DNA from: a virus
Lineage: Duplodnaviria; Heunggongvirae; Uroviricota; Caudoviricetes
Reading direction: 5' to 3' (one strand)
DNA length: 64,000 nucleotides
Virus record (IMG/VR): IMGVR_UViG_2740892427_000001
Shown here: positions 1,922 through 53,289 of the stretch, one piece after another
How the letters are laid out: each line of letters begins with the position of its first letter
Position numbering within the stretch: position 1 is the first letter of the stretch
Program-made: the position numbers and the translations under genes
Notes under the pieces: generated by a model
The model's input: the letters and a program-made list of their open reading frames with translations, nothing else
Database searches by the model: none
Told to the model about the DNA's origin: nothing

Positions 1922-1937
1922 AATACTCGCCTCTTAA

Positions 1938-5783: not shown

Positions 5784-5921
5784 GTGTTTTTCTCTTCTTT
5801 GCTGTTACATAAGCACTACCAAGTGCTGGTTTATTTTCACAAATAAGAAAAGGTAGAAAACAATTTATTTAAGGCCACAACTTATGGCCTTTATTTATTC
5901 ATGCCGAAGGATTTGTAGCGT

Positions 5922-6302: not shown

Positions 6303-7006
6303 CAGCGCACCTCACCATCTTTATGGCTGGAGTTAACTTCCGCCATTAAATGTCTGACGTAATCGACAAGAGAGCCACCTGGTGGAATCTGGCATTCCTC
6401 AACTAACTGGAAGTAGATATCCGCTGCATTACGTGTATTGCTACCCGCACATATTCTTTCTTCCCGAAGTGCATGAAGCTCGTTGATCAAACGGTCACAC
6501 TCTCCGTTACGCTGATCCACAACGGCCTCAAGCTCTGCGACGCGTTCACCTGGCGTCTTACCTTCTTTGCGTTGGATGGTAACGACGAAATCGCCAATTG
6601 CAGGGACGTTGTAATCCAGCTCAAGGTAGTTTTTGGCACCGCTGCGGACGAACTCACCCGCGAACATGGTGGCGAACATCGCAGAGGCCACTTCGTCGTT
6701 GAAAAGTGACTCCAGATCTAACGGAGTCCCGGCAGCAAGAGCCTCTTTTGCTGTATCCATTGCATCCATGAACCGATCAAACTCACTAGCGCGCTTTTCC
6801 AGGTCTTTCCATTGCTCGCTCCAACGTTTGGCAACGAAGTCTATGAATGTTTTCGCGGATTCATCAAAATCCCCCTCAAACTTAACGATGCCTTTATCAA
6901 TAATGATCTGGCCTACCGCATCCTCTGCATAACCTTTCAATGTAAACTTGAAAGGAAAATCAGAATGGCCTGTGACGTTAAAATGCTCTAACTGGAGGTT
7001 GTTCAT
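6302..7006 (-). CDS. hypothetical protein
   Basis: 234 aa ORF with conserved start context catgtgtttttc. Confidence 0.5.
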   Translation of the reverse strand: MNNLQLEHFNVTGHSDFPFKFTLKGYAEDAVGQIIIDKGIVKFEGDFDESAKTFIDFVAKRWSEQWKDLEKRASEFDRFMDAMDTAKEALAAGTPLDLESLFNDEVASAMFATMFAGEFVRSGAKNYLELDYNVPAIGDFVVTIQRKEGKTPGERVAELEAVVDQRNGECDRLINELHALREERICAGSNTRNAADIYFQLVEECQIPPGGSLVDYVRHLMAEVNSSHKDGEVR

Positions 7007-20168: not shown

Positions 20169-21311
20169 TTACAGGTCTGCAAACTGGCTTAGAGAAGCCT
20201 TGTCCACGGTAGAATCGATCTGACCTACCAGATATGTGCTTTGCTCTGCCTCTTGTGGTGCAATTTGCAGTGTGTCGGTTAACAACCACTTGTTCATCCA
20301 GACCAGCGGATCAGTGGTAACTTCTGGAAATAAAGCCTTCAGGCCAAGACGATTCATAGCCAGATTGGTTCGGTATTTTACATAGGTCTTCAGAATATCC
20401 GCGTTTAAACCAATCATCGAACCGTCTTTGAAGAGATAGTCTGCCCAGTTCATTTCTTGTTCGGCGACTGATTTCATGGTGTCGTAAATGACGTTTTCTT
20501 CATCAGCAGCAATCTCTTTCCACAATAAACCTTCGCGACCGGTACGCATGAAGCGGATCATGCGTTCAGTTCCTTCGCAATGCAGAGCTTCATCACGGGC
20601 AATAAAGCGCATAATTTTGGTGTTACCCTCAAGCAACTTCCGTTCGCCAAAGGCAAACGTACATGCAAAACTTACATAGAAACGGATCGCCTCAAGCGCA
20701 TTAATGGACACTAACGTGCGGAAAAGCTGACGGTGCAAAGGGTATGGCTCCCAGCCATATTCATTTACGTACAGACGTTCAAACTCTTTCTCACCTAACG
20801 ACTGGCGCTCGCAGGTCATCCCATAAAGCCTGTCATATTCAGCAGAGATACTGATCGCTCGGTTGATGATTTCTTCATCCGTAACAATACCGTCAAAAAC
20901 AATGCTCGGATCGTCCACCATGCCACGAATAATGTGGGTGTAGCTGCGGCTATGGATAGTCTCAGAGAAAGACCATGTTTCAACCCACGTTTCCAGTTCA
21001 GGAATAGAGATAAGCGGCAGCAGCGTTGCATTTGGGCTACGTCCCTGAACTGAATCGAGCAACGTTTGATAACGGAGATTACTCAGGAAAATGTGGCGTT
21101 CGTGGTCCCGCAGCTTCGTATTGAAGTCGATGCGATCGCTCGAAATATCAACTTCTTCCGGCCGCCAGAAGAAAGACAATTGACGTTCAATCAACTTTTC
21201 AAAATCACGGTATTTTTGTTGATCGTAACGAGCCACGTTGACAGATTGTCCGAGGAACATAGGCTCTTTGGTTGCATCATTAGCACCCAAACGGAACGTT
21301 GAATATGACAT
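20169..21311 (-). CDS. nrdB: ribonucleotide reductase class I small subunit
   Basis: 380 aa; R2-type iron/radical-site layout; adjacent to nrdA. Confidence 0.85.
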
Positions 21312-21393
21312 GTGTTTTTCCTTTTTCTTTTTTGGTGCGTTTAAACAAGTTGTTATCTTATGTGTTTAAACAAGGCTTACAAATCAAAGAGAA

Positions 21394-21412
21394 GGTGGGG
21401 ATATCCCCCACC
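21394..21412 (-). terminator. near-perfect palindrome ggtggggatatcccccacc between nrdA and nrdB (attenuator/terminator-like)
   Basis: Hairpin followed by T-rich run on the minus strand. Confidence 0.35.
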
Positions 21413-21417
21413 ATATG

Positions 21418-35295: not shown

Positions 35296-37635
35296 TTACT
35301 CTTCTACTGACTCGGTGGGGTTGTCTTTTGCTCTTCGGTCGTCGATTGCCTGCAAAGCCGCAATGATTTCAGCCAGTGGCTTCTCCCGATACATCTCGAC
35401 GATCTGCGATTTGGTGTATTTCTTGTCACCAATTTCAACTCGCCCGCTGGCGTTCTTTGGCAGGTATCCTTCTTCCAGCATGTACTCGACGAGCGATTCG
35501 ATAACGTCGAGGCCACGAGTAGGATCGAAGTAGAATTTCCAGGTGCATTTGCCATACGGTGGTGCAACTTTGTTTTTGATGCATTCTGCGCCTACGTCCT
35601 GGCCGATCTTCTCTTTACCATCCTTCATCACCGATGCACCAAGACGGATACGTACAGAAGCGTAGAACTTCGGTGAATCGCCGCCTGGTGACGTAGTAGG
35701 GTCGCCAAACATTACACCGATTTTTGTGCGAACCTGATTCAAGAAGATGATGCAGGCGTTGTATTTGCGTGCCCACAAAGCCAGAGTAGGGAAGTTCGCA
35801 CTCGTCGCACGAGCCAGTGCCGTATTGTCGTTCATGTTTAGCTGATCTTTGTCTTTGGCAGTGCCTTCAGCCATCTTTTCGAACTTCTCGGCTTTGGAGT
35901 TCGGAACCATAGACGCAAGAGAGTCAGCCACGATACAGATAGGTGCTGATTCGGGGATAAGCTCTTCATCACGAACCAATTTAAGTATTGTGCCGATCAA
36001 CTCTACAGAGTCTTCGAAGGTATCTGGCTGCTTGTATACCCACTGACCGTCATCCTCATCTGCGTTCAGGCCATTGGCTACAGCCAGGCCAACGTCAAAA
36101 CTGTTTTCATGATCGAGGAATACCGCCAGACCATCTTGTTTTTGAGCGGAGATCATCGCTGCTGTTGCAAGGAATGTGTTGTGGCTGATAATCCCGTTAG
36201 ACCAGAAAGAGTGTGTTTCCGGCATCGCTACGTCGAACGTTGGTGCTTCACCTTCCTCAATAGCCACGACTTCGTCGTAGAACAAGTTAGAGCCAATTAC
36301 CGCTGCCAGTTGTGCAAACAGATGCTCGTTAAAACGATTCTTTCTGCCAATGAAGGAGACATAGATTTCTCGCAGTTTGTCTATTCCGACACGATCGCCG
36401 CGGCCAATAACGTGGTCTACCAGAGCGTAGTCTTCACGGGTGGTCTTGGTGAGCGACTCGTAGAGTGATTTCACTAAGCCGCTGATGTGCGGAACATAGC
36501 CTGAGTAAGTGCGGTCAAAACCAATGTCCCGTTTGGTTGCCACTGATAAACGTGCCGGAGATTCGAAACCAATCGTTGACAGAAAAAGGTCGTAATTAGA
36601 GCCACTGAATGACAGCCGGTAATATGTATTTTCATAACCCGCGACGTGTTTTTCAGAGATAGTTGACGTAATCCCCAGATTCAGGAGCATGAGGCGAATT
36701 TGCTGTAGCAGCAGCCCACTCGCGCTCACAACCTCAATGCAGCGACCATCATTGACGTGGCATTCCAGCTCAAAGTAGCCGCGAAGGAATGCAATTTGAG
36801 CCTCGCTATTGGCGCGACGCACACTCAACGGAACCTGCTTGCCAGCATCTTTCTCATACTCCAGACCATATTCTTTAAAAAGCAGCGAACGCACCTCTTT
36901 GCTAAACAGCACATGGTCTTCCGAGCCGTTATGTTTTCTCGTAACTGGCATCTTGTCTGATACCAGCGAAATGAGGCGGTAGTACTCATCCTTGATGAAA
37001 GGATCTGTGTTAGAAAAATTCACTGAATTTTCAGAGGCCACGTATCCGTCAGCAATTAAATAGCCCATCAGTTTTGCGATATTGGCATCCAGGTGCTGAT
37101 CGCCGAATTGATGTGTGCCAACCATTGAAGGAATCGTGTCGCCTACACTGATTTTTTCAGCATGTCGCCAGACGACATTACCTAAGTCGTCAACCACACG
37201 GATTGGGTGACGGAACGTAGCCTCGATATAACCGCCTGATGCCAGCTTAATACGCTTGAATTTGCGACGGTTGTTCCATGTCAGGTGTGAGGTCTTCTCT
37301 ATCACGCCATTTTCATTGATGAGTCCAACGTTATGCTCTACATCGCGAGTAGTGCATGTCGCTTTGTACCCTTCAATCTCAAACAACTCTTTCACTGTTA
37401 CCATTCCACGCTCCGTCAGCAGCATGGTGTCTGCGGTAACACATTTCCCCGCGCTTGGTGGCCCGAATACTTCGACGATACGACCACATGGGAAGCCGCC
37501 ATCGTAACGACCAGAAATAGCTTTGTTTAACGGTGGAAAGCCTGTATCAATCCAATGAGTTACTTTCTGAATTTCGTCGTTGCTACCGATTTTCTTTTTC
37601 AGAGCAAGTGCCAGTGCGGATTTTCCTTTTGCCAT
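35296..37635 (-). CDS. recA: RecA recombinase containing an in-frame intein
   Basis: Exteins read ...RIVEVFGPPSAGK / TFLATAAM...LNQVRTKIGVMFGDPTTSPGGDSPKFYASVRIRLG (RecA core); 779 aa total versus ~357 aa extein. Confidence 0.85.
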   Translation of the reverse strand: MAKGKSALALALKKKIGSNDEIQKVTHWIDTGFPPLNKAISGRYDGGFPCGRIVEVFGPPSAGKCVTADTMLLTERGMVTVKELFEIEGYKATCTTRDVEHNVGLINENGVIEKTSHLTWNNRRKFKRIKLASGGYIEATFRHPIRVVDDLGNVVWRHAEKISVGDTIPSMVGTHQFGDQHLDANIAKLMGYLIADGYVASENSVNFSNTDPFIKDEYYRLISLVSDKMPVTRKHNGSEDHVLFSKEVRSLLFKEYGLEYEKDAGKQVPLSVRRANSEAQIAFLRGYFELECHVNDGRCIEVVSASGLLLQQIRLMLLNLGITSTISEKHVAGYENTYYRLSFSGSNYDLFLSTIGFESPARLSVATKRDIGFDRTYSGYVPHISGLVKSLYESLTKTTREDYALVDHVIGRGDRVGIDKLREIYVSFIGRKNRFNEHLFAQLAAVIGSNLFYDEVVAIEEGEAPTFDVAMPETHSFWSNGIISHNTFLATAAMISAQKQDGLAVFLDHENSFDVGLAVANGLNADEDDGQWVYKQPDTFEDSVELIGTILKLVRDEELIPESAPICIVADSLASMVPNSKAEKFEKMAEGTAKDKDQLNMNDNTALARATSANFPTLALWARKYNACIIFLNQVRTKIGVMFGDPTTSPGGDSPKFYASVRIRLGASVMKDGKEKIGQDVGAECIKNKVAPPYGKCTWKFYFDPTRGLDVIESLVEYMLEEGYLPKNASGRVEIGDKKYTKSQIVEMYREKPLAEIIAALQAIDDRRAKDNPTESVEE
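36178..37443 (-). mobile_element. intein (422 aa) with LAGLIDADG homing-endonuclease motifs, inserted in the RecA P-loop
   Basis: Begins with Cys directly after GK of Walker A, ends with HN followed by Thr; internal LMGYLIADGYV and LRGYFELECHV blocks. Confidence 0.8.
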
Positions 37636-40965: not shown

Positions 40966-41025
40966 TTTCAAGGCGGCATTAGCCGCCTTTTGCAGAAACT
41001 GTCCAACTATCTTCAAAGGAAAACT

Positions 41026-41589
41026 ATGGCGCTTTATAACTTCACTCTGACGCTCTCAGGCGTATCGTATGAGACGGAAGGACTGGAAGACGCGCTGTAC
41101 CAAAACGGCTGTGACGATGCGCTAATTTGCGCATATGGAAACTCCGTCTATGTAGAATTTGACCGCGAAGCACAATCACTTGATGCAGCTATCGCATCTG
41201 CGGTCGACAATATTGAATCAGCCGGTATCGGTGCAATTGTTGAATCCGTCGACTCGGCTCTTGTGGGCTTAAGCGATATCGCGGAACTGACAGACCTGTC
41301 TCGCCAGGCAGTGGCGTTGCTCAAAGACGGTAAGCGCGGAAGCGGCGACTTCCCTTGCCCTGTACAACGCATAAAAGGCCAGTCTCCTCTCTGGGATTGG
41401 GCTGATGTGGCTGAATGGCTCATGAATAACGGACGACTTAAAGAGGGCGATCAAATTGTCCAAAATGCCCGAACTTTGAGTAAATGGAATCTGGCGCTTC
41501 GAAACAGCGTCTCGAAAGATTTCAACGAAATAGAGCAAATTGCGGAGAAACTGATTAAACGCCGCAAAGATATTGCGAAATGCGCATAA
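41026..41589 (+). CDS. possible HicB-like antitoxin with C-terminal HTH
   Basis: Start at ATG 41026 with AAGGA RBS; N-terminus YNFTLTL...YETEG and C-terminal HTH-like LSRQAVALL. Confidence 0.35.
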   Translation: MALYNFTLTLSGVSYETEGLEDALYQNGCDDALICAYGNSVYVEFDREAQSLDAAIASAVDNIESAGIGAIVESVDSALVGLSDIAELTDLSRQAVALLKDGKRGSGDFPCPVQRIKGQSPLWDWADVAEWLMNNGRLKEGDQIVQNARTLSKWNLALRNSVSKDFNEIEQIAEKLIKRRKDIAKCA

Positions 41590-41918
41590 TGATGCCCGCC
41601 AATTGGCGGGCATCTGTTCTCTGTAAAGGTGTCTGGCATCGTCTGGTTCGTTAACGTTTACTAAACCAATGGTGACAAAAATTAGTTATCTTTGAAAAAT
41701 AAAGGTTGCATGAAAAGAAGGGGTATGCGTTAATAGCATCGTTGGTTTGCAAGACAGACCTTATGTAAGCAGTTTTAGTAAAGCAGTCTCAGTTCAGTGT
41801 TATCTTCTGATTTCCCTTCTTCGTGAGTCTCCTCCTTAAGTGCCTAAGTAAGTCCCAATCTATACAGATCAAATTCTCGCCGCACTATGTGGCTCACAAA
41901 ATTAAGAAGGTAATATCT

Positions 41919-42134
41919 ATGTCTAATAAAATGACTGGTTTAGTAAAATGGTTTAACTCTGATAAAGGCTTTGGCTTTATTTCTCCTGCTGATGGCAGTA
42001 AAGATGTTTTTGTACATTTTTCGGCAATTCAGAGTAATAATTTCCGCACTTTGGAAGAAGGCCAGCAGGTCGAATTCTCTATCGAGAATGGTGCTAAAGG
42101 CCCAGCAGCAGCAAATGTCGTTGCTCTAAGCTGA
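41919..42134 (+). CDS. cold-shock protein (CspA family)
   Basis: [38 protein letters not shown] is near-identical in pattern to E. coli CspA/CspE; long 5' UTR. Confidence 0.85.
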
Positions 42135-42412
42135 TTCAACGCTGATGATCCTCATTTCTACAATAACGAAGACGGTGTAAGCCTGAGTGGATAGATTTGT
42201 AGGATTGTACAAGTTGAATAAATTAGCATGGTAAGGCCATGCTAATTAAATCGACACAACGGCCAGTTTATTCCATAAAAGTGAATTGCCCATTGTGGCG
42301 AAATGCGGGGTTGCCGCATGAATAGTCAAAGGCAGAAGCTAACTGCCGGCATGGCAAAACAAAGTGCGTAAGAGGAGTGACTTCCTCAACAAGCGCCATA
42401 ATTCTTTATAAA

Positions 42413-42435
42413 CCCGCCAACAGGCGGGTTTTCTT
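42413..42435. terminator. bidirectional intrinsic terminator (cccgccaacaggcggg + T-run) between csp and dnaE
   Basis: 6-bp GC stem, T-run downstream, A-run upstream. Confidence 0.6.
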
Positions 42436-42437
42436 TA

Positions 42438-45400
42438 TTACTTATTTATTGTCTCCGCGATATCAGCCAGAATGGCCTCCAGTCGCTCTCCTTCTTCCGG
42501 TCGGAAGTACAGGATATTCGGGTTAAATCCGTAGAAGACGGTTGCATCAAGCTCTGGGAAGTACTCCTTACGACCAATCAGATCTGATGGTTTACTCTTA
42601 TTGTTAAATAGTGCGGTTGAACGACTACCACACGTCAAAATGTAGGTTGGTCGTACAAGATTAATTTCTTCCCGCATAAAGTCTGTGAACTGGCCTATCT
42701 CGTCTTTGGTATAGTCTTTCTCTTTGTCCTTAACCTTCTTACAAACACCCGTGACATAAAGATCGCCCATGCGCAGATCTCCAACTGTCAGTAGTTTTGC
42801 CTTAAAGTCGTCGTATCCGTTCTCCATGAAGTAGCCGGTACGAGCGTCATTGCCGTTCGCATTGTCCAGAATGATCATGATTTTGGGTTTAATACCAATA
42901 GTCGGGCGTATCAACTCCTCACCCAAGCCCATTTCAGCCGCCATACGTGTCATGAGTACGTTGATTTCGGCAGAACGCTTAGGATTCATTTCGAACGGAC
43001 GTGATGCTTTAACAGCGTCAATGATGAGATTGCCCATCAGCTCAGCCTGGTCGCGCAGTCGTTCAGGATCAGTTGCTGGCAGACTGCCTGGCTCAATTGA
43101 CGCAAAAGCCCCTACTTTATGAAGCGACTCGCGTACACGACTGTTACATGCACGCTTCTCGACCGCTTCATCGAATTGTGCCACTGACTCGAATTTGCCA
43201 CCAACTTTCTCACGCGCACGCATAATTGCCTGACAACCATTTTCAGAACAGCCTTTCACAGCAGAGAATGGCGCATACAGTGCCTGACTGCCGTCTTCGA
43301 GTGTGCGGATCTCAATTCGGTTAGATGACACATTAACGTCTGGTGGCAATACGCGAATGCCATAGGTCAGCGCATCCTTCACCAGCCCCTGATGCTTATC
43401 CTCGCCCAGAATGGTGAGCGCAGCTGCGAAGAACTCAGCAGGGTAGTGCGTCTTTAGCCACATAGACTGATAACTGATTAAAGAATAAGCAACACTGTGT
43501 GATTTGTTGAAGGCATATCCACCGAACTTCTCAAAGGCGTCCCATATTTCTTGGGCTTTTTCCTTACTGAGACCTTCTTGTTCAGAGACGATCTCCACGT
43601 AGTCTATGCCGTCACTAATAGCCTCGCTGTAGCTTCTACGCTTACCGTCTGAGCAATCCAGTTTTGCGTGTTTGTGAACCTCTACAGTACCTCCATTTTT
43701 GAGTGACAGTGTCACCCAGCCTGCTTGTGCTCGTTCTACAAAATCGCTGCCGATCGCTTTCATCTTATCCATGTTCTTTTTACCGATAGCGGAACGCAGA
43801 GCGTCTGCTTCGGCCATAGAGAACCCGGCAAGTACTCGGGAACTTTGCATGATTTGTTCCTGATAGAGCAAAACACCATTAGTCTCCCGGGTGACTTCCT
43901 CAAGACGCGGATGAATTGAATGTGGAGCCATGAAGCCTTTGGCCACGGAGACATAGTCGTCCAACATGCCGGATTGGATCGGGCCTGGTCGGAAGAGTGC
44001 GGTCGTGGCGACAACGGTCTTGAAGCTCATTGGCTCGATGCCACCGCCCAGATCTTTAAGCAACTTACGCATGGGGCCGGACTCCAGCTGGAATACGCCC
44101 TGCGTGTACCCTGCAGCGAACCCATCCAGAACCTTGCGATCGTCCAGTGGGATAGCGTCGAGATTGATGTCTTCCCCGGTACTCTCTTTGATGTAGCGTT
44201 TCGCGCTATCCAGAAGATCGAGCGTTGCCAGGCCAAGCACGTCCAGCTTAATTAGGCCCATAGCCTCGCAGTAACGCTTGTCAAATGCGATACAACGCGC
44301 GTCACCACGGCGCTCAACCGGTGTACGTTCTGTCAGAGGAACACCTGCTACGATCATCCCTGCCGCATGTCTACCAAAGCCACGCATAAGGCTTTGTAAC
44401 TTGCAGGCTGCATTGAATGCATCAGGATATTTTGTTGCGTATTTGTCGAGACTTGCCAGTTGTTCGCGCAGCTCTTCCAATGGAAGGCTATCATCCTCGA
44501 CGTTCTTCAGTTCTTTTGATACCGCCATATCTGCGGACTCCACACCATAAATACGAGCGGTGTCACGTAGTGCAGATGCCGCGCCCAGATAGGTGAAGTT
44601 CGGAATGCCTGCAACGTAATCTTCGCCGTAGCGTTCATTCAGATACTCGATCACCTCATGGCGACGTGCCTGGCTGAAGTCCAAGTCCGCATCCGGCAAG
44701 TCGAGACGCTCAGGGTTGATGAAACGCTCAAACAGAAGACCGTGACGGATTGGGTCGACGTTGGTTATGCCTATGCACCACGCCACCAGAGAACCGGCAG
44801 AGGAACCACGACCAGGCCCGACAGGAATGCCAGTTTCACGGCTGTGATTCATCAGATCGCGTACCATCAGGAAGTAACCACAGAATCCCAGGCGAGTCAG
44901 CGTGTCCATTTCGTACTTTAGCCGCTCAACATAAACCCTGTTCTCAGAAGCAGGTGGTGTGTATCCAAACTCTTTTGTGGTAAGACGTTTACGCAGCCCT
45001 GCAACAGCCAGTTTCATCAGCGTTGCAGGTTCGTCGTCTGCCATCTTGGGCAGTGCTGGTGGCAATTCATGCCAGCGCCATGTGCAGGCATCGATAATGG
45101 AGTCCTGCGTTGTTGAGGCCATTGCAGCTGTTACCGGCACATCCATGCGAACGGAGAAGGCTTTAAGCGCCTCAAGGAGATGGCGACGACCATTGATGGC
45201 GTTATCTCGCTGGTGGGGGATACGCAGACGATGCGGCTGGTCGATTTTTATGTTGTTCGTAACCATGTGCGCAATGTCTTTAATGTCTGCATCGTCGATC
45301 GATTCGTAATAAGCGGGATAGAACGCCACTGGCTCTATTTTCAATGCGCTGGCTACTTTCATCGCTCGGACGTTAATCTGGTCGTAGAATGGGGTAGGGT

Positions 45401-45944
45401 GCGGATAAACCACGCTATAGAAGTTGTCTTTCCCGCCCGCTGTAATCAGTGAGCTTATGATTTTTGCAAAATCGTTGCGTTGGAACACGCTACCGATGTC
45501 GGAAGTGAGCAGGATGATGTTGCCTTTGGCATATGTAGAAACCAACTGTTCGAGCGAGAGACGCGGTACAAAGTAGAACTGTTCTCGTGTGTTGGCCACC
45601 GTCATTAGTTCGCAGATGTCGCGATATCCTTTCTCATTTTTAATTAGAGCGGTAAACGAGTAGTTACGTCCTCGCTCCAATGATTCCATACATCCCTTAG
45701 ACTCTTTAGCAAGTTTAGCCCGGTGCTCGTATGTGGGATCATCAACGATGTTTAGTTTCACACCACAAATAACCGCCATGTCGTCACCAGCGGCACGTTG
45801 TAGTGGAATAACGCTCGCAATATTCATGCTATCTGCTGAAATTACAGCGGTGTAGCCAGCTTCTCTGGCAATCTTCACCGCGTTTTCTGCTTTTAGAGCC
45901 GACTCCCCAAGTGAGAAGTCAGTTCGAACCATCAGTGCTTTCAT
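42438..45944 (-). CDS. dnaE: DNA polymerase III alpha subunit-like replicative polymerase
   Basis: 1168 aa; N-terminal PHP-like domain; PDADLDF catalytic aspartate block parallels DnaE PDIDIDF. Confidence 0.8.
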   Translation of the reverse strand: MKALMVRTDFSLGESALKAENAVKIAREAGYTAVISADSMNIASVIPLQRAAGDDMAVICGVKLNIVDDPTYEHRAKLAKESKGCMESLERGRNYSFTALIKNEKGYRDICELMTVANTREQFYFVPRLSLEQLVSTYAKGNIILLTSDIGSVFQRNDFAKIISSLITAGGKDNFYSVVYPHPTPFYDQINVRAMKVASALKIEPVAFYPAYYESIDDADIKDIAHMVTNNIKIDQPHRLRIPHQRDNAINGRRHLLEALKAFSVRMDVPVTAAMASTTQDSIIDACTWRWHELPPALPKMADDEPATLMKLAVAGLRKRLTTKEFGYTPPASENRVYVERLKYEMDTLTRLGFCGYFLMVRDLMNHSRETGIPVGPGRGSSAGSLVAWCIGITNVDPIRHGLLFERFINPERLDLPDADLDFSQARRHEVIEYLNERYGEDYVAGIPNFTYLGAASALRDTARIYGVESADMAVSKELKNVEDDSLPLEELREQLASLDKYATKYPDAFNAACKLQSLMRGFGRHAAGMIVAGVPLTERTPVERRGDARCIAFDKRYCEAMGLIKLDVLGLATLDLLDSAKRYIKESTGEDINLDAIPLDDRKVLDGFAAGYTQGVFQLESGPMRKLLKDLGGGIEPMSFKTVVATTALFRPGPIQSGMLDDYVSVAKGFMAPHSIHPRLEEVTRETNGVLLYQEQIMQSSRVLAGFSMAEADALRSAIGKKNMDKMKAIGSDFVERAQAGWVTLSLKNGGTVEVHKHAKLDCSDGKRRSYSEAISDGIDYVEIVSEQEGLSKEKAQEIWDAFEKFGGYAFNKSHSVAYSLISYQSMWLKTHYPAEFFAAALTILGEDKHQGLVKDALTYGIRVLPPDVNVSSNRIEIRTLEDGSQALYAPFSAVKGCSENGCQAIMRAREKVGGKFESVAQFDEAVEKRACNSRVRESLHKVGAFASIEPGSLPATDPERLRDQAELMGNLIIDAVKASRPFEMNPKRSAEINVLMTRMAAEMGLGEELIRPTIGIKPKIMIILDNANGNDARTGYFMENGYDDFKAKLLTVGDLRMGDLYVTGVCKKVKDKEKDYTKDEIGQFTDFMREEINLVRPTYILTCGSRSTALFNNKSKPSDLIGRKEYFPELDATVFYGFNPNILYFRPEEGERLEAILADIAETINK

Positions 45945-46128
45945 GTGTTTTTACCTTTATGGTTTTTTTGATTTTGTCATTGGGGAAGCCTACGAACTTC
46001 CCATACATCGAAATCGCAACTTCTTTTGCTGATTGGTGACAATCGGTCTTGTCTGGACATACCAGACAAGCCTTACCAGTTTCAGAAGCAGCGATAAGAG
46101 AGCCGAAACATCCTTTACGCACGATCAA
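45919..46128 (-). CDS. small Cys-rich protein
   Basis: 69 aa, CLVCPDKTDCH. Confidence 0.35.
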   Translation of the reverse strand: MIVRKGCFGSLIAASETGKACLVCPDKTDCHQSAKEVAISMYGKFVGFPNDKIKKTIKVKTHESTDGSN

Positions 46129-47360
46129 CCAAATATTTTTTGAACAACTTCACGAGCCGCTTGTGCAGAAGCTGAAGGGAGTTTGTTAATGAAAGAACGC
46201 TCAATACCTGTCACAAAGTCGCCTCGCATCATTCCAATCTTGGCCGACAACAAAAGTTCACGAGGGCCAATTGGCTGACTGATAAGGTGTTCTTCGTATC
46301 CATCGCGAACGATACCGGCAAACTTAACCATCTTTTCTGCGTATTCATCCACGATACCGGCATTTATCAACATGTTGATCTCTGCCTCTTTGCTCATGTA
46401 TTTCACATTCGAAACGATGCCAAAACGCGAAAAGTTCGCGGCGTTCTGGATGTTTGTACCCTGGTACAAGCCGGTTTCATCACCAGATCCGTTCGTGTTG
46501 CCAGTGCCAATGAAAGCAAACCGTTCATGCGGAGTAATGCGACGCCATTCTGGAGTCGCCTCTTTGATGACCAACGCTTCACCTTCCAGCACTGGCTGAT
46601 ACACGCCAAGAATCTGTGGAAACGCAAAGTCGTATTCATCCGCGAGGTAAACCCAGCCATGCTTCATTGCGAGCGCAAGCAAGCCAGGCTCGAAATACGT
46701 AGAGCCATCACGCGCCAGAATTTGCCCCGTAACATGTGCCTCTTCCATTGATGCTGTATGTTGGGCACGGATCAACGGACGATTGAGCAAAGCACATAGT
46801 TGTGTAGGCAATGACGATTTGCCTGTTCCTGCATGACCCCACAAATAGCCAGGTATGCCAAGTTCAAGCATCATGAAAATGTCTTTGATCAGTTCGAAGT
46901 CGCCATATACGTAGCCCTTCTTCACTTCTGGAACGAACTCTGGAAACGGCGTATTGACGTTGACGCTAACCATGAGCGGCGTCCCACGTTTTGTTCCGAG
47001 TTCTTTCACCGTTACATTTAGCAGTTCGTGAGCTGCGACCAGATCTGTCTTGTACTCAACTGTGCCTGTGTAGCCTGGGCTACTGGTCACGCCAGATGAT
47101 TTGGCCATTTCGCTTTTTTGCTCGGCACGTTTAGCTTGAATTGCATCAAGTGCCTTTTTCGATAGCGTTGGCTCATCTGGAAACTGTGTTGTGTACATTT
47201 TCAGTACGGTGTCAGGATCGGCATCTTTTACTGACTCAGGAATGCCCTCGCAATTACCATTGGCTACATGGGACTTAAAATAGTGAAATGATTTTCCGCA
47301 CCACTTGCAAACAAGGTAATCAGAAGGATTTTTTTCATTTTGCAGTGCAGTAGTAGTCAT
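46125..47360 (-). CDS. CobS-like AAA+ (MoxR-family) ATPase
   Basis: Walker A GHAGTGKS; pairs with downstream vWA protein. Confidence 0.6.
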   Translation of the reverse strand: MTTTALQNEKNPSDYLVCKWCGKSFHYFKSHVANGNCEGIPESVKDADPDTVLKMYTTQFPDEPTLSKKALDAIQAKRAEQKSEMAKSSGVTSSPGYTGTVEYKTDLVAAHELLNVTVKELGTKRGTPLMVSVNVNTPFPEFVPEVKKGYVYGDFELIKDIFMMLELGIPGYLWGHAGTGKSSLPTQLCALLNRPLIRAQHTASMEEAHVTGQILARDGSTYFEPGLLALAMKHGWVYLADEYDFAFPQILGVYQPVLEGEALVIKEATPEWRRITPHERFAFIGTGNTNGSGDETGLYQGTNIQNAANFSRFGIVSNVKYMSKEAEINMLINAGIVDEYAEKMVKFAGIVRDGYEEHLISQPIGPRELLLSAKIGMMRGDFVTGIERSFINKLPSASAQAAREVVQKIFG

Positions 47361-47455
47361 GCGTTTTTCCTTTGTTTTCTAATGAGCGTTCAACTTCTTA
47401 TATAAATATATCATTATCTATCGTAAGTGGTTACTTATCGTTAAGGCTGTTTTGT

Positions 47456-49564
47456 TCACTTTAAAATGATACGAGATAGTTCAGTAACTACAGATGAACC
47501 AAGACTATCAACGCTCGTTACCAGGGCATGATTTGAGTAAAATCTCTCCGGTGCGTCAGTCATGATGCCAATTGCCATCAAATCAATGTCAGTCTGCGTT
47601 TCAATTTGCTTCGCAACCGAACGCAAATGAGCGTCAAAACCTCTCCCAACAGCCCACGGCTCGCCATCGCTCAGAACAAGCATGATCTTCCTGTCCTCCA
47701 TGCGACCGGAAAATAACGATGCAAGGCTGGCTATGCTTTCACCATCCACGTTATTAAGAAGTGGGAATGTGTAGCCTACGCACCCCATACGTGAGCGAAC
47801 TTCGCGAGAATTTACCTTTTCATTCCAATTTTTGATGATAGGTAGCATTAAAGATTCAAAGCGAGAGAACTCATACTTGACAGCCTTAAGTTCTCCTGCC
47901 GCCATATGACTACCAAATGTAGTGAAGCCGGTGATAATGTTGGGAACATTTATTCGATCAAGGGCATCGGCGATGGTATATGCACTTGCAAGAGCCAATT
48001 GTATCGTTATACCCCTCATTGAACCTGATAAATCAATCACTTGTTGAACACAGGCGTTAACGGCTTTAGATTCTTCTTTTTTACGAAACACGCGATCATC
48101 ATTCATTGCTAATCTGTAGATACTAGAACCATGAATGCGCCCCCGACGCTGGCCCGGTATAAACTGAACTCTGTTTCTGCTTGCTATTGCTCGCTCCAGG
48201 TCTTTTGCCAGCGTCGACGAAACACCTGACGAAAGATGCTTTTCAATATATTTGTCGAAGAGCTGGTTGCCTTCAGGAACGATGCGATAGCGGCTGATTG
48301 GACATCCTCCTAAATCAATATCGGAGAATGTTTTAATAAGCCGTTTGATATGGGCTTCTGCCTGATCAATCGAGCCGATGAAGTCGTATGAGCGATTGTA
48401 TGGCCTGTATTCGCTTTTCGAGCTTTCTGTTAACTCGCTTTTAATCGTTTCGGATAGAGCATCTTCTGTCATGCCTCCGACTTCATCTTCTATGCTATCC
48501 AGCTCCTCTAAAGCCTCTTCCAGACTCATTTTTGACGGAGTTGGGATATCTGAAGAGCCGTCTTCTGTCGTTTTTCTTTTTTCGTGGTCAGCGGTTAATG
48601 ATTCTGACGCCGCGTTATCAGAAGCATCAGAATCTGATACCTCTTTATCATTTTCTGTATCATCGAATATTGTTTCTGATGATTCAGAATTATCTGAATC
48701 ATCACTGTTGTTATTATCATGTTTGTGCTTACTATGTGATTCTGATTTGATAGATTTGTGATTATCTAACAATGAAGGTGTCTCATGATCTTCGTTGTCT
48801 TCATTGTTTTCTCCAGAGGCATCCGTCTGGTCAGCGTCAGAAGGATCGGAAGTTTTTCCCGGAGCTGACTCCTTACCTTTGCTTTCACTTTCAGTGTCTT
48901 TGAGGATCTTAGCTATGGTCGCAGCCACCTTTACACAATCCTCGGTGCAAGACATGTTACGCACGGCCACATCGATACCATGTTCTTTTAATAATGAAAT
49001 TGGTTTCTCAATGACAGGCCAGTATTCATCCATGAAATCTACGAACGGTGCTTGGCCATCCCAGGCTCTTACAACCGGACAGAGAAAGAAGTTTAGAAAA
49101 AGCGCGCGCTGATCTTTGCCACAATAAGCAATAGCCTCTGAAGCCTTTGGTTTAAAGACTTTTTCGATTATAAGGCGCTGAGTTGCCATCAGATTACGTC
49201 TTGTTCCGTTAAAGACCTGACCCATTTTTCGCTCGATGAACACGTCTTCTAAGGCATTCCATAGCGACCAGGAAGGAACGCGTCCTTTTTCTCTCATTTT
49301 GTTGGACACACGAATATCGGTAAACAAAATGTGAGCAACCTCATGATCGAGAAATCCGCGCACAGCATTCATCAATGCCGGTGTTGCGTTATCCGGGATT
49401 GATGGGATGTTTACGAGAATTGGCTCTCCATCATCGTTATAGCGTACATAAGCGTCGTCCCCTCGTTCTGCAACAGGGATGTTTTTACCTGAAAGGAGAG
49501 CGACTACTCGTTTTACACTGTCACGGAAGTCCTGAACCTCTTTGATGGAACGTTTTTTAGACAT
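47456..49564 (-). CDS. CobT-like protein with C-terminal von Willebrand A domain and long acidic low-complexity linker
   Basis: vWA-like blocks DLSGSM ... MLVLSDGEP; ~150-aa D/S/E/N-rich region. Confidence 0.55.
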   Translation of the reverse strand: MSKKRSIKEVQDFRDSVKRVVALLSGKNIPVAERGDDAYVRYNDDGEPILVNIPSIPDNATPALMNAVRGFLDHEVAHILFTDIRVSNKMREKGRVPSWSLWNALEDVFIERKMGQVFNGTRRNLMATQRLIIEKVFKPKASEAIAYCGKDQRALFLNFFLCPVVRAWDGQAPFVDFMDEYWPVIEKPISLLKEHGIDVAVRNMSCTEDCVKVAATIAKILKDTESESKGKESAPGKTSDPSDADQTDASGENNEDNEDHETPSLLDNHKSIKSESHSKHKHDNNNSDDSDNSESSETIFDDTENDKEVSDSDASDNAASESLTADHEKRKTTEDGSSDIPTPSKMSLEEALEELDSIEDEVGGMTEDALSETIKSELTESSKSEYRPYNRSYDFIGSIDQAEAHIKRLIKTFSDIDLGGCPISRYRIVPEGNQLFDKYIEKHLSSGVSSTLAKDLERAIASRNRVQFIPGQRRGRIHGSSIYRLAMNDDRVFRKKEESKAVNACVQQVIDLSGSMRGITIQLALASAYTIADALDRINVPNIITGFTTFGSHMAAGELKAVKYEFSRFESLMLPIIKNWNEKVNSREVRSRMGCVGYTFPLLNNVDGESIASLASLFSGRMEDRKIMLVLSDGEPWAVGRGFDAHLRSVAKQIETQTDIDLMAIGIMTDAPERFYSNHALVTSVDSLGSSVVTELSRIILK

Positions 49565-49662: not shown

Positions 49663-49875
49663 TTAACAGATTCTGACGGCTAAAGACCCGGAGCCGGTAT
49701 TGAGAAGCGTGAAGCGTTTGTTGTTAAGTTCGAATATAAATCCAGTTGTGTCATTCACACCAACCTGAATCTGCTCATTCGGTAGATCGGTGAGGATGTC
49801 AGCTACACACTCATCAACTAATTTCTGTACGTGTCCGATCTCAAGAGCGATTAGGCTGGAAATAGTGGTGTTCAT
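49663..49875 (-). CDS. small hypothetical protein
   Basis: 70 aa ORF. Confidence 0.4.
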   Translation of the reverse strand: MNTTISSLIALEIGHVQKLVDECVADILTDLPNEQIQVGVNDTTGFIFELNNKRFTLLNTGSGSLAVRIC

Positions 49876-50053
49876 TCAATCAGTCCATTCTAACTTATAC
49901 TATGGTAAGGAATACTACTAAAATTTGTATCAATACTGAATACATTCATATCATATGCAAGTTGATTTTCTTACCTATTTTTGGCTAATTTTTCTCCGTG
50001 CAATGGCCTTTAACCGGTCTTTTAAGTGCCTATCGAAAAAAATGATAATAGCT

Positions 50054-50097
50054 TTACAACCCTAACCTTTGATGTAATATCGGTAAGCACTTACCAG
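50054..50097 (+). promoter_or_regulatory. promoter TTTACA-16-TAATAT with palindromic operator GGTAAGcaCTTACC just downstream of the -10
   Basis: Located 30-70 bp upstream of the HTH regulator ATG; the palindrome belongs to the dispersed motif family. Confidence 0.5.
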
Positions 50098-50126: not shown

Positions 50127-50513
50127 ATGTCTGATAACAAGATTGAATTTATAGAAAGTCGCTACGCTGCTTTTATCGCAGGGTTGATTGAATCCTCACC
50201 TATGAGCCAGGCCCAGATAGCCAAAACAATTGGGTATAAAAACGCCAACAACCTTTCTTTAATTAAAAGCGGCAAAATTCCTTTGCCTATCGATAAGGTT
50301 CGTCCGCTGGCGCTGGCACTGGGTATTGAGCCAAGTCGTCTTATGATGATGGTGCTGGAAGAACGCCAACCCGAACTCGCAGCATTTTTATACAAAGAAG
50401 GCACTGCTCCTCTTAACGAGGACGAAAAACAGGTTCTTGCTGCATATAACGAGCGATTCGGTAAAGAGAAAGGCGCATCACAAAAGGTTGTTGAGGCCAT
50501 AAAGTCTCTATGA
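50127..50513 (+). CDS. HTH (XRE/Cro-C1 type) transcriptional regulator
   Basis: 128 aa; HTH-like MSQAQIAKTIGYKNANNLSLIKSGK. Confidence 0.6.
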   Translation: MSDNKIEFIESRYAAFIAGLIESSPMSQAQIAKTIGYKNANNLSLIKSGKIPLPIDKVRPLALALGIEPSRLMMMVLEERQPELAAFLYKEGTAPLNEDEKQVLAAYNERFGKEKGASQKVVEAIKSL

Positions 50514-52635: not shown

Positions 52636-52722
52636 TGGCGGAGAGTAATGGAATCGAACCATCATCGCTTGCGCAATGGGACGGTTTTCAAGACCGCTTG
52701 AGCACCATGCTCCCTACTCTCC
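52636..52722 (-). tRNA. tRNA-Ser (anticodon TGA), long variable arm
   Basis: Cloverleaf folded by hand: acceptor GGAGAGT/ACTCTCC, anticodon loop CTTGAAA, T-loop GGTTCGATTCC, 87 nt. Confidence 0.7.
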
Positions 52723-52822
52723 AGCTATTGTGATGGTCGGTGCTGAACTCCGACACAGGGTTGTAGCAAGCCCCGCAAAGCGCGCACTACTGTAGTTGCG
52801 GCACATCAGCCTGTGCATTCAT

Positions 52823-52901
52823 CACAACGGTAAGATCACTACCTTTCGACCAGTCATTGTGCACATGAACGACGATTAACCGTAATGATCTTATCGTTGT
52901 G
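52823..52901 (-). repeat. hairpin-bounded module H2 (terminal inverted repeat CACAACGGTAAGATCA)
   Basis: 79 nt, 16-bp stems with one G-U position. Confidence 0.4.
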
Positions 52902-52952
52902 TTGTGAAGCCAGATGCTTATCTTCTGGTTGCTTCAAAGAGCTGCACTTCCT

Positions 52953-53041
52953 CACAACGGTAAGAGCACTGGTCTGACTCTATCGATTTACGGGCTTGTG
53001 GGTCAGTATCGCCGATTCGCCCAATGCTCTTACCTGTTGTG
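52953..53041 (-). repeat. hairpin-bounded module H3 (terminal inverted repeat CACAACGGTAAGAGCA), abuts tRNA-Thr
   Basis: 89 nt, 16-bp stems with one bulge. Confidence 0.4.
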
Positions 53042-53042
53042 T

Positions 53043-53118
53043 TGGTGCCGGTTAACGGGATCGAACCGCTGACATCCTGCTTACAAGGCAGACGCTCTAC
53101 CAACTGAGCTAAACCGGC
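53043..53118 (-). tRNA. tRNA-Thr (anticodon TGT)
   Basis: Acceptor GCCGGTT/AACCGGC, anticodon loop CTTGTAA, T-loop GGTTCGATCC, 76 nt. Confidence 0.8.
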
Positions 53119-53122
53119 AATT

Positions 53123-53209
53123 TGGTGGGGAGTGATGGAGTCGAACCACCCGAGTCGCAATGACAGTAGATTTACAGTCTACCCCGCTGCCCCTACGGAC
53201 TAACTCCCC
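53123..53209 (-). tRNA. tRNA-Tyr (anticodon GTA), long variable arm
   Basis: Acceptor GGGGAGT/ACTCCCC, anticodon loop CTGTAAA, T-loop GGTTCGACTCC, 87 nt. Confidence 0.75.
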
Positions 53210-53214
53210 TAAAT

Positions 53215-53289
53215 TGGCGATGGTGGGTGGATTCGAACCACCGACCAGTTGGTTAACAGCCAACTGCTCTACCGCTGAGCTACACCATC
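53215..53289 (-). tRNA. tRNA-Asn (anticodon GTT)
   Basis: Acceptor GATGGTG/CACCATC, anticodon loop CTGTTAA, T-loop GGTTCGAATCC, 75 nt. Confidence 0.8.

What the first reader, a model, noticed from the sequence alone, without database searches (positions are those of the whole stretch)
46125..49564. CobS-like AAA+ ATPase paired with a CobT-like vWA protein carrying a long acidic low-complexity linker
This MoxR-type ATPase plus vWA pair is known from phages but without an established function. Here the vWA protein has a ~150-residue Asp/Ser/Glu/Asn-rich segment, which is encoded by the GAT/TCT-rich stretch at ~48480..48900. A small Cys-rich ORF lies immediately upstream.
Basis: partly seen in the sequence, partly recalled or inferred. 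Interest (0 to 1): 0.4.

Follow-up and report, generated by a model that had tools for sequence, protein, structure and literature searches.

The report
Phage-type CobS/CobT motor–adaptor pair
This is the well-known but functionally unsolved CobS/CobT-like ATPase–adaptor gene pair of an SSU5-like E. coli phage-plasmid; it is not a vitamin B12 enzyme here, its acidic linker is a normal family trait, and its adaptor keeps a protease-like zinc motif that the true B12 enzyme has lost.

Summary
On the minus strand, 46125..47360 encodes a 411-aa CobS-like AAA+ ATPase and 47456..49564 a 702-aa CobT-like vWA/MIDAS protein with a disordered acidic linker of about 120 aa. The window is an SSU5-like E. 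coli phage-plasmid, 100% identical to plasmid CP057560 and 99.6% to pLF82/phage Cyrano.

The pair is already annotated and discussed in the literature. It is homologous to cobaltochelatase CobS/CobT but is not an ortholog: it scores far below the NCBIfam equivalog cut-offs. The element has no CobN and no cobalamin genes, and E. coli lacks the pathway.

The acidic linker is not special. True CobT and all 71 diverse phage relatives have one.

Two features do separate the phage type from true CobS/CobT:
- An invariant HExxH motif in the M48-peptidase-like N-domain of CobT, which true CobT lacks.
- A CxxC..H..H extension on CobS.

The genes form a conserved cassette: HTH regulator, cobT, cobS, a 4-Cys protein, dnaE. 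Its order persists down to about 30% protein identity.

My best reading is an ATP-driven protein remodeller, possibly a protease, of the lytic replication programme, with an unknown client. Interest is modest.

The parts
50127..50513 (+). HTH regulator (putative repressor, CYRAN_45 homolog), divergent from the cobT operon. It is context and the probable controller of the operon.
   Evidence: Pfam HTH_19. Annotated as putative repressor and expressed in lysogeny in Cyrano. A homologous HTH gene lies next to cobT in 13 viral loci, including distant ones. A promoter-like site at 50053-50080 and the palindrome GGTAAGCACTTACC at 50082-50095 lie upstream.
49663..49875 (-). 70-aa ORF of unknown function, the first gene of the leftward unit, 98 bp upstream of cobT.
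   Evidence: phrog_2627, E 2.2e-40. Present in 76 of 80 SSU5-like loci but only 46-66% identical between lineages.
47456..49564 (-). CobT-like adaptor protein, 702 aa: M48-like N-domain, acidic disordered linker, shaft/helical region, vWA-MIDAS domain.
   Evidence: AlphaFold mean pLDDT 83.7.
48899..49564 (-). CobT N-domain (aa 1-222): one helix, a three-stranded sheet, then about eight helices. This is the same layout as the crystal structure of true CobT_N, described as 'M48C peptidase-like'.
49331..49345 (-). HEVAH (aa 74-78), an HExxH zinc-peptidase-type motif on helix 2. D73, E106, D107 and E111 are also invariant.
   Evidence: H74 70/71, E75 71/71 and H78 70/71 in relatives of 27-61% identity found by HMMER. 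True CobT has DSMAL or DAFAL at this position.
48530..48898 (-). Acidic Asp/Ser/Glu/Asn-rich disordered linker (aa 223-345).
   Evidence: Composition. pLDDT below 50. No tandem repeat. Between lineages it is 21-31% identical with length 108-214 aa, while folded domains stay 70-78% identical. It is present in all 71 relatives (length 36-268, median 142, median D+E 38%) and in true CobT.
48053..48181 (-). Region aligned to the 'shaft' of true CobT (aa 462-504, SRNRVQFIPGQRRGRIHGSS...VFRKKEESKAVNA). In the chelatase this element inserts into the CobS ring pore.
   Evidence: Alignments to 9uka_G and to S. meliloti and Cereibacter CobT. G475 and F493 are invariant. Shaft defined as Q373-R413. The equivalence is inferred from alignment.
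47459..48079 (-). vWA domain with intact MIDAS (D511, S513, S515, T548/T549, D633). The DLSGS motif lies at 48020..48034.
   Evidence: Pfam CobT_C, E 3.7e-82. MIDAS residues 69-71 of 71 conserved. Foldseek matches to the NorD vWA domain in NorQD (E 2e-8) and to the MIDAS domains of MDN1/Rea1.
46125..47360 (-). CobS-like AAA+ ATPase, 411 aa. Walker A at 46815..46838, Walker B at 46635..46652.
   Evidence: G175, G178, G180, K181, D241, E242, N288, R312, R352 and R367 are conserved in at least 90% of 40 sequences, including two true CobS.
46941..47360 (-). N-terminal extension of CobS (aa 1-140), absent from true CobS. It carries C18-x2-C21-x4-H26-x4-H31-x5-C37 (47250..47309), a zinc-finger-like motif.
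   Evidence: The alignment to solved CobS starts at aa 141. The motif is shared by most DnaE-linked phage CobS and some T4-like ones, and is absent from S. meliloti and Cereibacter CobS. Metal binding is inferred only.
45919..46128 (-). Small 4-Cys ORF (67-69 aa; GCFG...CxxC...C) between cobS and dnaE, overlapping both.
   Evidence: phrog_6337, E 1.9e-44, and phrog_3616. Present in 77 of 80 SSU5-like loci. The same Cys motif heads roughly 200-aa proteins at the same position in 15 distant viral loci.
42438..45944 (-). Phage-plasmid DNA polymerase III alpha (DnaE), the last gene of the same apparent transcription unit. It is context.
   Evidence: Pfam PHP, DNA_pol3_alpha, finger and HHH_6 domains. 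No terminator-like site on the minus strand between cobT and dnaE. A GC-rich hairpin at 42410-42431 follows the dnaE stop. cobT-cobS-dnaE order is kept in loci with DnaE only 35-40% identical.

Best explanation
The two genes encode the phage-type version of the CobS/CobT motor-adaptor module.

Proposed architecture:
- CobS is an active MoxR/CobS-class AAA+ ring ATPase.
- CobT is its adaptor. By homology with the solved cobaltochelatase CobST complex, I infer three contacts:
  - its N-domain docks on the small subdomain of CobS;
  - its conserved 'shaft' enters the ring pore;
  - its vWA/MIDAS domain, tethered by the disordered acidic linker, holds a client protein.

In the chelatase the client is CobN. 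Here CobN is absent from the element and from E. coli, so the module cannot insert cobalt.

I propose it is an ATP-driven remodeller of another protein, produced with the lytic replication genes. It lies in one unit with the element's own Pol III alpha, beside the repressor gene. The N-domain of phage CobT keeps an intact HExxH motif in an M48-peptidase-like fold, which true CobT has lost. The adaptor may therefore also cut its client, as an AAA+-coupled zinc protease.

Shown: homology, intact motifs, disorder of the linker, absence of CobN, conserved synteny.
Inferred: mode of assembly, timing of expression, proteolysis, and the replication-related nature of the client. The client's identity is unknown.
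For: Homology and intact catalytic motifs.

Not the chelatase:
- NCBIfam equivalog scores are 84.8 against 558 and 67 against 759.
- No ORF of CobN size other than DnaE is in the window.
- None of the 126 annotated Cyrano features is a cobalamin gene, and the RNR is class Ia NrdAB.
- E. coli needs about 30 foreign genes, including cobN, cobS and cobT, to make B12 (10.1101/394338).

Phage-specific HExxH:
- Present in 70 of 71 HMMER-found relatives.
- Absent from S. meliloti and Cereibacter CobT in the same alignment column.

N-domain fold:
- Same layout as true CobT_N, which its authors call M48C-like.

Conserved shaft.

vWA domain: closest to MIDAS domains that work with AAA+ rings, NorD and Rea1.

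Operon and synteny:
- Genes are overlapping or closely spaced, there is no internal terminator, and the HTH gene is divergent.
- The HTH-cobT-cobS-Cys protein-dnaE order persists in contigs with CobT 26-40% and DnaE 35-40% identical.
- In T4-like contigs cobS and cobT lie among rnh, gp45, gp46/47, uvsW and gp55, not among structural genes.

Expression and distribution:
- CYRAN_47 and CYRAN_48 are not among the genes expressed in lysogeny (PMC9928086).
- cobS behaves as a single-copy core gene of myocyanophages rather than a niche-dependent metabolic gene (PMC9983427).
Against: - No experiment on any phage CobS/CobT was found.
- E106 and E111 are also conserved in true CobT, so they do not by themselves mark a zinc site.
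- The helix that carries HExxH also carries the residues that bind CobS in the true enzyme, so the motif could be structural.
- Synteny with dnaE may reflect common descent of one large phage lineage. T4-like phages and ICP2 carry cobST with other polymerases, so the client is not DnaE-specific by necessity.
- The viral loci were retrieved with patterns that include DHEV, so their HExxH counts are not independent.
- No clear sigma-70 promoter was found for the leftward unit.
Confidence: 0.5

Rival explanations
1. Virion-assembly chaperone with a processing protease. The MoxR-vWA pair helps fold or assemble structural proteins, and the N-terminal metallopeptidase trims them. Iyer et al. 2021 proposed this for the same architecture in T4-like jumbo phages, by analogy with the MoxR-vWA pair needed for tail growth of Acidianus two-tailed virus.
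For: - The published proposal for a MoxR AAA+ and vWA pair with an N-terminal metallopeptidase (PMC7824862).
- The Cyrano head module has a scaffold protein (phrog_206) but no recognisable prohead protease.
- The HExxH motif is invariant.
Against: - In both phage groups the genes sit in replication and recombination modules, far from head and tail genes.
- Here they share a unit with dnaE next to the repressor gene.
- T4-like carriers have their own gp21-type protease (established knowledge), so the pair is not a general substitute for it.
Confidence: 0.2
2. Host-takeover or counter-defence device. The motor-adaptor captures a host protein, such as a defence factor, a replisome component or a repressor-like protein, through MIDAS, then unfolds or cleaves it early in lytic growth.
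For: - Early position next to the immunity region.
- cobT and the upstream 70-aa gene diverge faster (57-69% and 46-66%) than dnaE (87-92%), int (83-90%) and cobS (78-86%) among SSU5-like elements.
- Even the folded cobT domains are only 70-78% identical.
- A weak match (E 0.0044) of the N-domain helix to the anti-CRISPR AcrIIA26.
Against: - No hit to defence or anti-defence models beyond a chance-level DrmE match.
- The family is very broad across hosts, from cyanobacteria to archaea. This argues for a conserved client rather than a lineage-specific host target.
- The AcrIIA26 match covers 52 residues and may be chance.
Confidence: 0.15
3. Auxiliary metabolic gene. Viral CobST replaces or boosts the host motor of cobaltochelatase by using host CobN, raising B12 supply for phage replication (Liu et al. 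2021; Seed et al. 2011).
For: - Clear homology to CobS and CobT, including the shaft and MIDAS.
- The proposal in PMC8651126 and PMC3037004.
Against: - No CobN in the element.
- E. coli has no de novo B12 pathway. The Enterobacterales hosts of 770 related plasmids, when they make B12, use the anaerobic CbiK route without CobNST (established knowledge).
- The element's RNR is B12-independent class Ia.
- Scores are far below the equivalog cut-offs.
- The HExxH motif and the CobS extension are foreign to the chelatase.
Confidence: 0.03

Closest known systems
Aerobic cobaltochelatase motor CobS/CobT (CobNST; structures 9UJV-9UKL, 21VT, 21VU; Zhou et al., bioRxiv 2026)
   Same: - AAA+ CobS with the same catalytic residues.
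- CobT with an M48C-like N-domain, a disordered acidic linker, a pore-inserting shaft and a vWA-MIDAS domain.
   Different: - No CobN partner or corrin pathway.
- Scores far below the ortholog cut-offs.
- HExxH is present in CobT_N here and absent in the enzyme.
- CobS has a roughly 100-aa N-terminal extension with a CxxC..H..H motif.
- Gene order is cobT then cobS, against cobS then cobT in S. meliloti and Cereibacter.
Viral 'cobST' of tailed phages and archaeal viruses (myocyanophage core gene cobS, Vibrio phage ICP2 ORF41/42, haloviruses, SSU5 'porphyrin biosynthesis' proteins)
   Same: The same protein families: phrog_249 and phrog_1576. 515 clusters at E of 1e-30 or better. Described in PMC8651126, PMC3037004 and PMC9983427.
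   Different: None in kind. This window is a member, 99.6% identical to Cyrano and about 75% in DNA to SSU5. The published B12 interpretation does not fit this host.
MoxR AAA+ and vWA pair with an N-terminal metallopeptidase, in group 2.2 (T4-like) jumbo phages (Iyer et al. 2021)
   Same: The same three-part architecture. T4-like contigs recovered here carry HExxH, an acidic stretch and DxSxS in one protein next to a CobS-like ATPase.
   Different: That pair was described in jumbo myoviruses and assigned to virion assembly. Here it is in a 110-kb siphovirus phage-plasmid, inside the replication operon. Identity of the two families was not tested directly, because the cited accessions were not retrievable.
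NorQ/NorD, CbbQ/CbbO, RavA/ViaA and Rea1-midasin (MoxR-class AAA+ rings working through a MIDAS domain)
   Same: AAA_5 ring plus a vWA-MIDAS partner that grips a client protein and remodels it.
   Different: Those partners have no M48-like HExxH domain, and their clients are known (NO reductase, Rubisco, respiratory complexes, pre-60S factors). The client here is unknown.
M48 and other gluzincin metallopeptidases (Ste24/ZMPSTE24, HtpX, BlaR1, ArdC); FtsH as an AAA+-coupled zinc protease
   Same: HExxH on the helix after a three-stranded sheet, with conserved Glu on the next helix. Weak fold matches.

Membership tests
Cobaltochelatase subunit CobS (TIGR01650, EC 6.6.1.2) | AAA+ fold with Walker A, Walker B, sensor 1, arginine finger and sensor 2, alignable to solved CobS. 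| tested here: met
   9ujv_A, E 1.8e-25 over aa 141-411. GHAGTGKS and VYLADE motifs. N288, R312, R352 and R367 conserved together with true CobS.
Cobaltochelatase subunit CobS (TIGR01650, EC 6.6.1.2) | Score at or above the curated equivalog cut-off. | tested here: not met
   84.8 bits against a cut-off of 558.55.
Cobaltochelatase subunit CobT (TIGR01651) | Architecture: M48C-like N-domain, disordered acidic linker, shaft, vWA domain with MIDAS. | tested here: met
   Pfam CobT and CobT_C. Alignment with two true CobT. AlphaFold models. Description of the true enzyme.
Cobaltochelatase subunit CobT (TIGR01651) | Score at or above the curated equivalog cut-off. | tested here: not met
   67 bits against a cut-off of 759.05.
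Cobaltochelatase CobNST holoenzyme | A CobN catalytic subunit and the corrin pathway are available in the element or the host. | tested here: not met
   Element: no CobN-size ORF except DnaE, and no cobalamin gene among the 126 Cyrano features. Host: not searchable at protein level with these tools. E. coli needs foreign cobN, cobS and cobT.
MoxR-class AAA+ / vWA chaperone pairs | AAA_5-type ATPase encoded next to a vWA protein with an intact MIDAS. | tested here: met
   AAA_5, E 2.1e-15. D511, S513, S515, T548 and D633 conserved in 69-71 of 71 sequences. Fold matches to NorD and to the Rea1 MIDAS domain.
Phage-type CobST (phrog_249 / phrog_1576; 'MoxR-vWA-metallopeptidase' pair) | HExxH in the N-domain of the vWA protein, fused through an acidic linker. 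| tested here: met
   HEVAH at aa 74-78. 70 of 71 relatives carry the motif. phrog_1576, E 5.6e-301.
Gluzincin / M48-like metallopeptidase | Zincin fold: mixed sheet, an HExxH helix, and a helix with the third ligand. | tested here: inconclusive
Gluzincin / M48-like metallopeptidase | Zinc binding and peptide-bond hydrolysis. | not testable with these tools
   Needs purified protein. No coordinates of the model were available to measure ligand geometry.
SSU5-like phage-plasmids (pLF82/Cyrano, pHCM2, pMT1 group) | Near-identical DNA and conserved gene order around the locus. | tested here: met
   100% to CP057560, 99.6% to NC_011917 and OV696614, 74.5% to SSU5. Same order in 74-80 of 80 viral loci.

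The most novel reading that the evidence does not exclude
The phage-type CobST is the catalytically intact form of an AAA+-driven, M48-like zinc protease/remodeller needed for lytic replication. The bacterial cobaltochelatase motor would then be a derived form in which the peptidase domain became a pseudo-enzyme that only docks CobS and CobN. In that case the 'B12 auxiliary metabolic gene' found in a very large number of marine and gut phages is mis-named, and the usual assumption of a host-to-phage transfer of cobS/cobT would need revisiting.
Probability: 0.25. Interest if true: 0.65.

Novelty: already known. Interest (0 to 1): 0.35.

Why it matters
cobS and cobT are counted as vitamin B12 'auxiliary metabolic genes' in a great many virome studies, and cobS is a core gene of marine myocyanophages. 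The same pair sits in hundreds of clinical Enterobacterales phage-plasmids: 770 plasmid records matched here.

The module may have nothing to do with cobalt. If it is instead an ATP-driven remodeller or protease of the lytic replication programme, two things follow:
- Those metabolic inferences are wrong.
- A widespread, genetically tractable phage function becomes open to study, because Cyrano/pLF82 and SSU5 grow in E. coli and Salmonella.

The contrast between an intact HExxH in phages and its loss in true CobT also gives a simple sequence rule to tell the two apart in annotation.

Tried and rejected
- PADLOC models gave only a chance-level DrmE match (E 0.0026), so there is no support for a known defence system.
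- Tandem Repeats Finder on the linker DNA found only a 9-bp, 2.6-copy array, so the linker is not a repeat array or slippage tract.
- phmmer of the N-domain alone against PDB returned spurious HLA class II hits.
- The N-domain profile returned only a marginal AcrIIA26 match.
- Foldseek of the N-domain against PDB had a best E of 2.4.
- The afdb50 fold library was unavailable.
- Pfam at E up to 1 shows no match of the N-domain to any peptidase family; only PF06213 CobT matches.
- The search for related loci with the single CobS protein reached only SSU5-like relatives. The alignment-based scan reached distant ones, but through motif patterns that bias HExxH counts.
- The solved CobT entries did not appear in the fold searches. 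This is probably because the fold library stops in April 2026, or because it uses the vWA-only chain as representative.
- A DnaE-specific chaperone role was considered and down-weighted. T4-like phages and ICP2 carry the pair with other polymerases.
- Literature searches found no genetic or biochemical test of any phage CobS/CobT.


Full report
WHAT IS THERE

The window is an SSU5-like phage-plasmid of E. coli.
- The 4-kb region around the finding is 100% identical to plasmid CP057560 and 99.6% to pLF82 (NC_011917), which is Escherichia phage Cyrano (OV696614).
- It is about 75% identical in DNA to Salmonella phage SSU5.
- 770 plasmid records of Klebsiella, Escherichia, Enterobacter, Yersinia and Salmonella match it.

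All genes of interest are on the minus strand. In transcription order they are:
- a 70-aa ORF (49663..49875);
- the CobT-like gene (47456..49564, 702 aa);
- the CobS-like gene (46125..47360, 411 aa);
- a small 4-Cys ORF (45919..46128);
- a Pol III alpha gene (42438..45944).

A helix-turn-helix gene (50127..50513, plus strand) faces away from this unit. It is annotated as the putative repressor in Cyrano. An integrase gene follows it.

THE OBSERVATION

- CobS matches Pfam AAA_5, phrog_249 and the solved cobaltochelatase CobS (E 1.8e-25), followed by midasin and CbbQ/NorQ. Its Walker A, Walker B, sensor and arginine residues are conserved.
- CobT matches Pfam CobT (N-domain) and CobT_C (vWA, E 3.7e-82) and has an intact MIDAS.
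- The Asp/Ser/Glu/Asn-rich segment is real. D+E+S+N make 57% of it against 25% elsewhere, and hydrophobic residues 10% against 36%.
- The segment is predicted disordered, with pLDDT below 50 for aa 252-328 and no secondary structure between about aa 233 and 342.
- It is not a DNA tandem repeat.
- Its core is about 110-120 residues rather than 150.

The Cys-rich ORF exists, but it is downstream of cobS in the direction of transcription, overlapping both cobS and dnaE. Its likely start is the GTG at 46122.

THE ACIDIC LINKER IS A FAMILY TRAIT

- True CobT has a comparable acidic stretch. This is visible in the alignments to chain 9uka_G and to the S. meliloti and Cereibacter proteins.
- An exhaustive HMMER search found 515 clusters at E of 1e-30 or better.
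- In 71 diverse full-length relatives (27-61% identity), every protein has such a linker. Length is 36-268 residues (median 142) and median D+E content is 38%.
- Among SSU5-like elements the linker behaves like a typical disordered tether. Between lineages it is 21-31% identical and 108-214 residues long, while folded domains stay 70-78% identical.
- Within the closest lineage it keeps its length (123 residues) but is the most variable part, at 77-98% identity.

NOT A COBALTOCHELATASE

- The proteins score 84.8 and 67 bits against the NCBIfam equivalog models, whose cut-offs are 558 and 759.
- The window has no ORF of CobN size other than DnaE.
- The complete annotated Cyrano genome has no cobalamin gene. 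Its ribonucleotide reductase is the B12-independent class Ia.
- E. coli needs about 30 heterologous genes, including cobN, cobS and cobT, to make B12 (10.1101/394338).
- The Cyrano record labels the two genes 'cobalamin synthetase' and 'dimethylbenzimidazole phosphoribosyltransferase'. This is the Salmonella meaning of the names CobS and CobT, and it is a naming error. The same slip occurs in a cyanophage paper.

WHAT SEPARATES THE PHAGE TYPE FROM THE ENZYME

The first difference is the motif D73-H74-E75-x-x-H78.
- It is present in 70-71 of 71 relatives found without any motif filter.
- S. meliloti and Cereibacter CobT have D-S-M-A-L and D-A-F-A-L in the same columns.
- E106, D107 and E111 on the next helix are invariant in the phage type. 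However, E106 and E111 are also kept in true CobT, so they are weaker evidence for a metal site.

The fold of the N-domain fits a peptidase-like origin, but only weakly by structure search.
- An AlphaFold model of aa 1-225 (pLDDT 90.5) shows a helix, a three-stranded sheet and about eight helices, with HExxH on the helix after the sheet.
- This is the layout reported for the crystal structure of true CobT_N, which its authors say resembles the peptidase M48C domain.
- Foldseek found nothing significant.
- True CobT_N therefore looks like a pseudo-peptidase, and the phage protein like a form with the catalytic motif intact. Activity is untested.

This reading has partial precedent. Iyer et al. 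2021 described a MoxR AAA+ and vWA pair with an N-terminal metallopeptidase in T4-like jumbo phages (PMC7824862). Liu et al. 2021 called the peptidase annotation of cyanophage cobT a mistake (PMC8651126).

The second difference is in CobS.
- Phage CobS has an N-terminal extension of about 100-140 residues that the enzyme lacks.
- The extension carries a C-x2-C-x4-H-x4-H motif shared by most relatives.

The third difference is gene order. It is cobT then cobS here, and cobS then cobT in the two bacteria examined.

WHAT IS SHARED WITH THE ENZYME AND BEARS ON MECHANISM

In the solved complex:
- CobT_N binds the small subdomain of CobS through R76 and D80. These align with R69 and the invariant D73 here.
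- A 'shaft' (Q373-R413) in front of the vWA domain enters the CobS pore when nucleotide binds.

The shaft aligns with aa 462-504 of the phage protein. This is one of its best-conserved stretches, and G475 and F493 are invariant even against true CobT. The vWA domain is structurally closest to MIDAS domains that work with AAA+ rings, namely NorD in NorQD and Rea1/MDN1. I infer that the phage pair assembles in the same way and grips a different client.

CONTEXT

- cobS, the Cys ORF and dnaE overlap, and the other gaps are under 100 bp.
- No terminator-like site lies on the minus strand inside the unit. A GC-rich hairpin follows dnaE.
- The order int, HTH, 70-aa ORF, cobT, cobS, Cys ORF, dnaE holds in 74-80 of 80 SSU5-like viral contigs.
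- In 14 much more distant contigs (CobT 26-40%, DnaE 35-40% identical) cobT, cobS and dnaE keep the same order.
- In those contigs a roughly 200-aa protein lies between cobS and dnaE and begins with the same GCFG..CxxC..C motif as the small ORF here (15 loci).
- A homologous HTH gene lies beside cobT in them.
- Other frequent neighbours are primase, ligase and a UvsY-like protein.
- In a second, T4-like group the pair lies among rnh, gp45, gp46/47, uvsW and gp55.
- In neither group is the pair near head or tail genes.
- In LF82 lysogens the repressor and several toxin-antitoxin genes of Cyrano are expressed above background. CYRAN_47 and CYRAN_48 are not listed among them (PMC9928086).
- In the oceans cobS is found at about one copy per myocyanophage genome regardless of depth, like a core gene (PMC9983427).

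EXPLANATION AND RIVALS

The best-supported reading (confidence about 0.5) is an ATP-driven motor-adaptor that remodels, and perhaps cleaves, a protein client during the lytic replication programme. The acidic linker would act as a flexible tether between the ring-docking N-domain and the client-binding vWA domain. The client is unknown. DnaE linkage is strong in this lineage but not universal, since T4-like phages and ICP2 use other polymerases.

The rivals are:
- A virion-assembly or maturation role (0.2). Cyrano has a scaffold protein but no recognisable prohead protease, yet the gene position argues against it.
- A host-takeover or counter-defence role (0.15). cobT and the 70-aa gene evolve faster than their neighbours.
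- The B12 hypothesis (0.03), which fails for lack of CobN.

LIMITS

- No experiment exists for any phage CobST.
- The peptidase assignment rests on a motif, a predicted topology and weak fold scores.
- The assembly mode is by homology only.
- The viral loci were fished with patterns that include the DHEV motif, so the HExxH counts are biased. The unbiased figure is 70 of 71.

VERDICT

The finding is real, correctly read and already known: an annotated gene pair of a well-sampled phage-plasmid family, whose architecture is published. The added value here is fourfold:
- the linker is ordinary for the family;
- the chelatase function is excluded in this host;
- the HExxH contrast with true CobT is demonstrated;
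- a deeply conserved HTH-cobT-cobS-Cys protein-dnaE cassette is defined.

Noticed in passing
window 50082-50095; also 7052, 12021, 14234, 23782, 28466, 39786: The palindrome GGTAAG-N2-CTTACC occurs 7 times with up to 2 mismatches, against 1.3 expected; 0 of 100 shuffles reach 7. The exact copy lies 32 bp upstream of the HTH/repressor start. Four others lie 15-50 bp upstream of minus-strand gene starts, including nrdA and the sbcD-like gene, and one lies 133 bp upstream of a start. Half-sites flank the region upstream of the cobT unit (49904, 49970). It may be an operator or regulon motif.
   Followed up: partly
window 41741-42159 (+): A full-length Rfam match to the cspA thermoregulator (187.6 bits against a gathering score of 78). 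This indicates a cold-shock protein gene with its 5' UTR, convergent with dnaE. The hairpin at 42410-42431 probably terminates both. The corresponding stretch has no CDS in the Cyrano annotation.
   Followed up: no
window 52636-53289 (-): Four tRNA genes are present: Ser-tga, Thr-tgt, Tyr-gta and Asn-gtt. The Cyrano record annotates only three and has no Tyr.
   Followed up: no
L001 (OV696614) 20226-23665: The public Cyrano record names CobS 'cobalamin synthetase' and CobT 'dimethylbenzimidazole phosphoribosyltransferase'. This confuses the Pseudomonas-type cobaltochelatase names with the unrelated Salmonella CobS and CobT enzymes. The same label for cyanophage cobS appears in PMC9983427.
   Followed up: yes
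window 49231-49276 (CobT aa 97-111 region): The N-domain profile's best PDB sequence match is the anti-CRISPR AcrIIA26 (9zq6_B, E 0.0044, 52 residues). It is centred on the N-x-V-E-D-x-F-I-E helix. It may be chance or a shared helix motif.
   Followed up: no
plasmid collection: A tblastn search with a true CobT vWA fragment found phage-type relatives (below 60% identity) in 1011 plasmid records. These include 147 Acinetobacter and 11 Aeromonas plasmids, so the module extends beyond Enterobacterales phage-plasmids.
   Followed up: no
L003 (OV696614) 135-6428: The Cyrano head module has terminase, portal, a scaffold protein (phrog_206), the major capsid protein and an Ig-domain protein, but no recognisable prohead protease.
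   Followed up: partly
window 40990-41589 and Cyrano CYRAN_50/51; 35296-37635: A HicA/HicB toxin-antitoxin pair lies just beyond dnaE, and the replication region holds an unusually long (779 aa) RecA-annotated protein.
   Followed up: no
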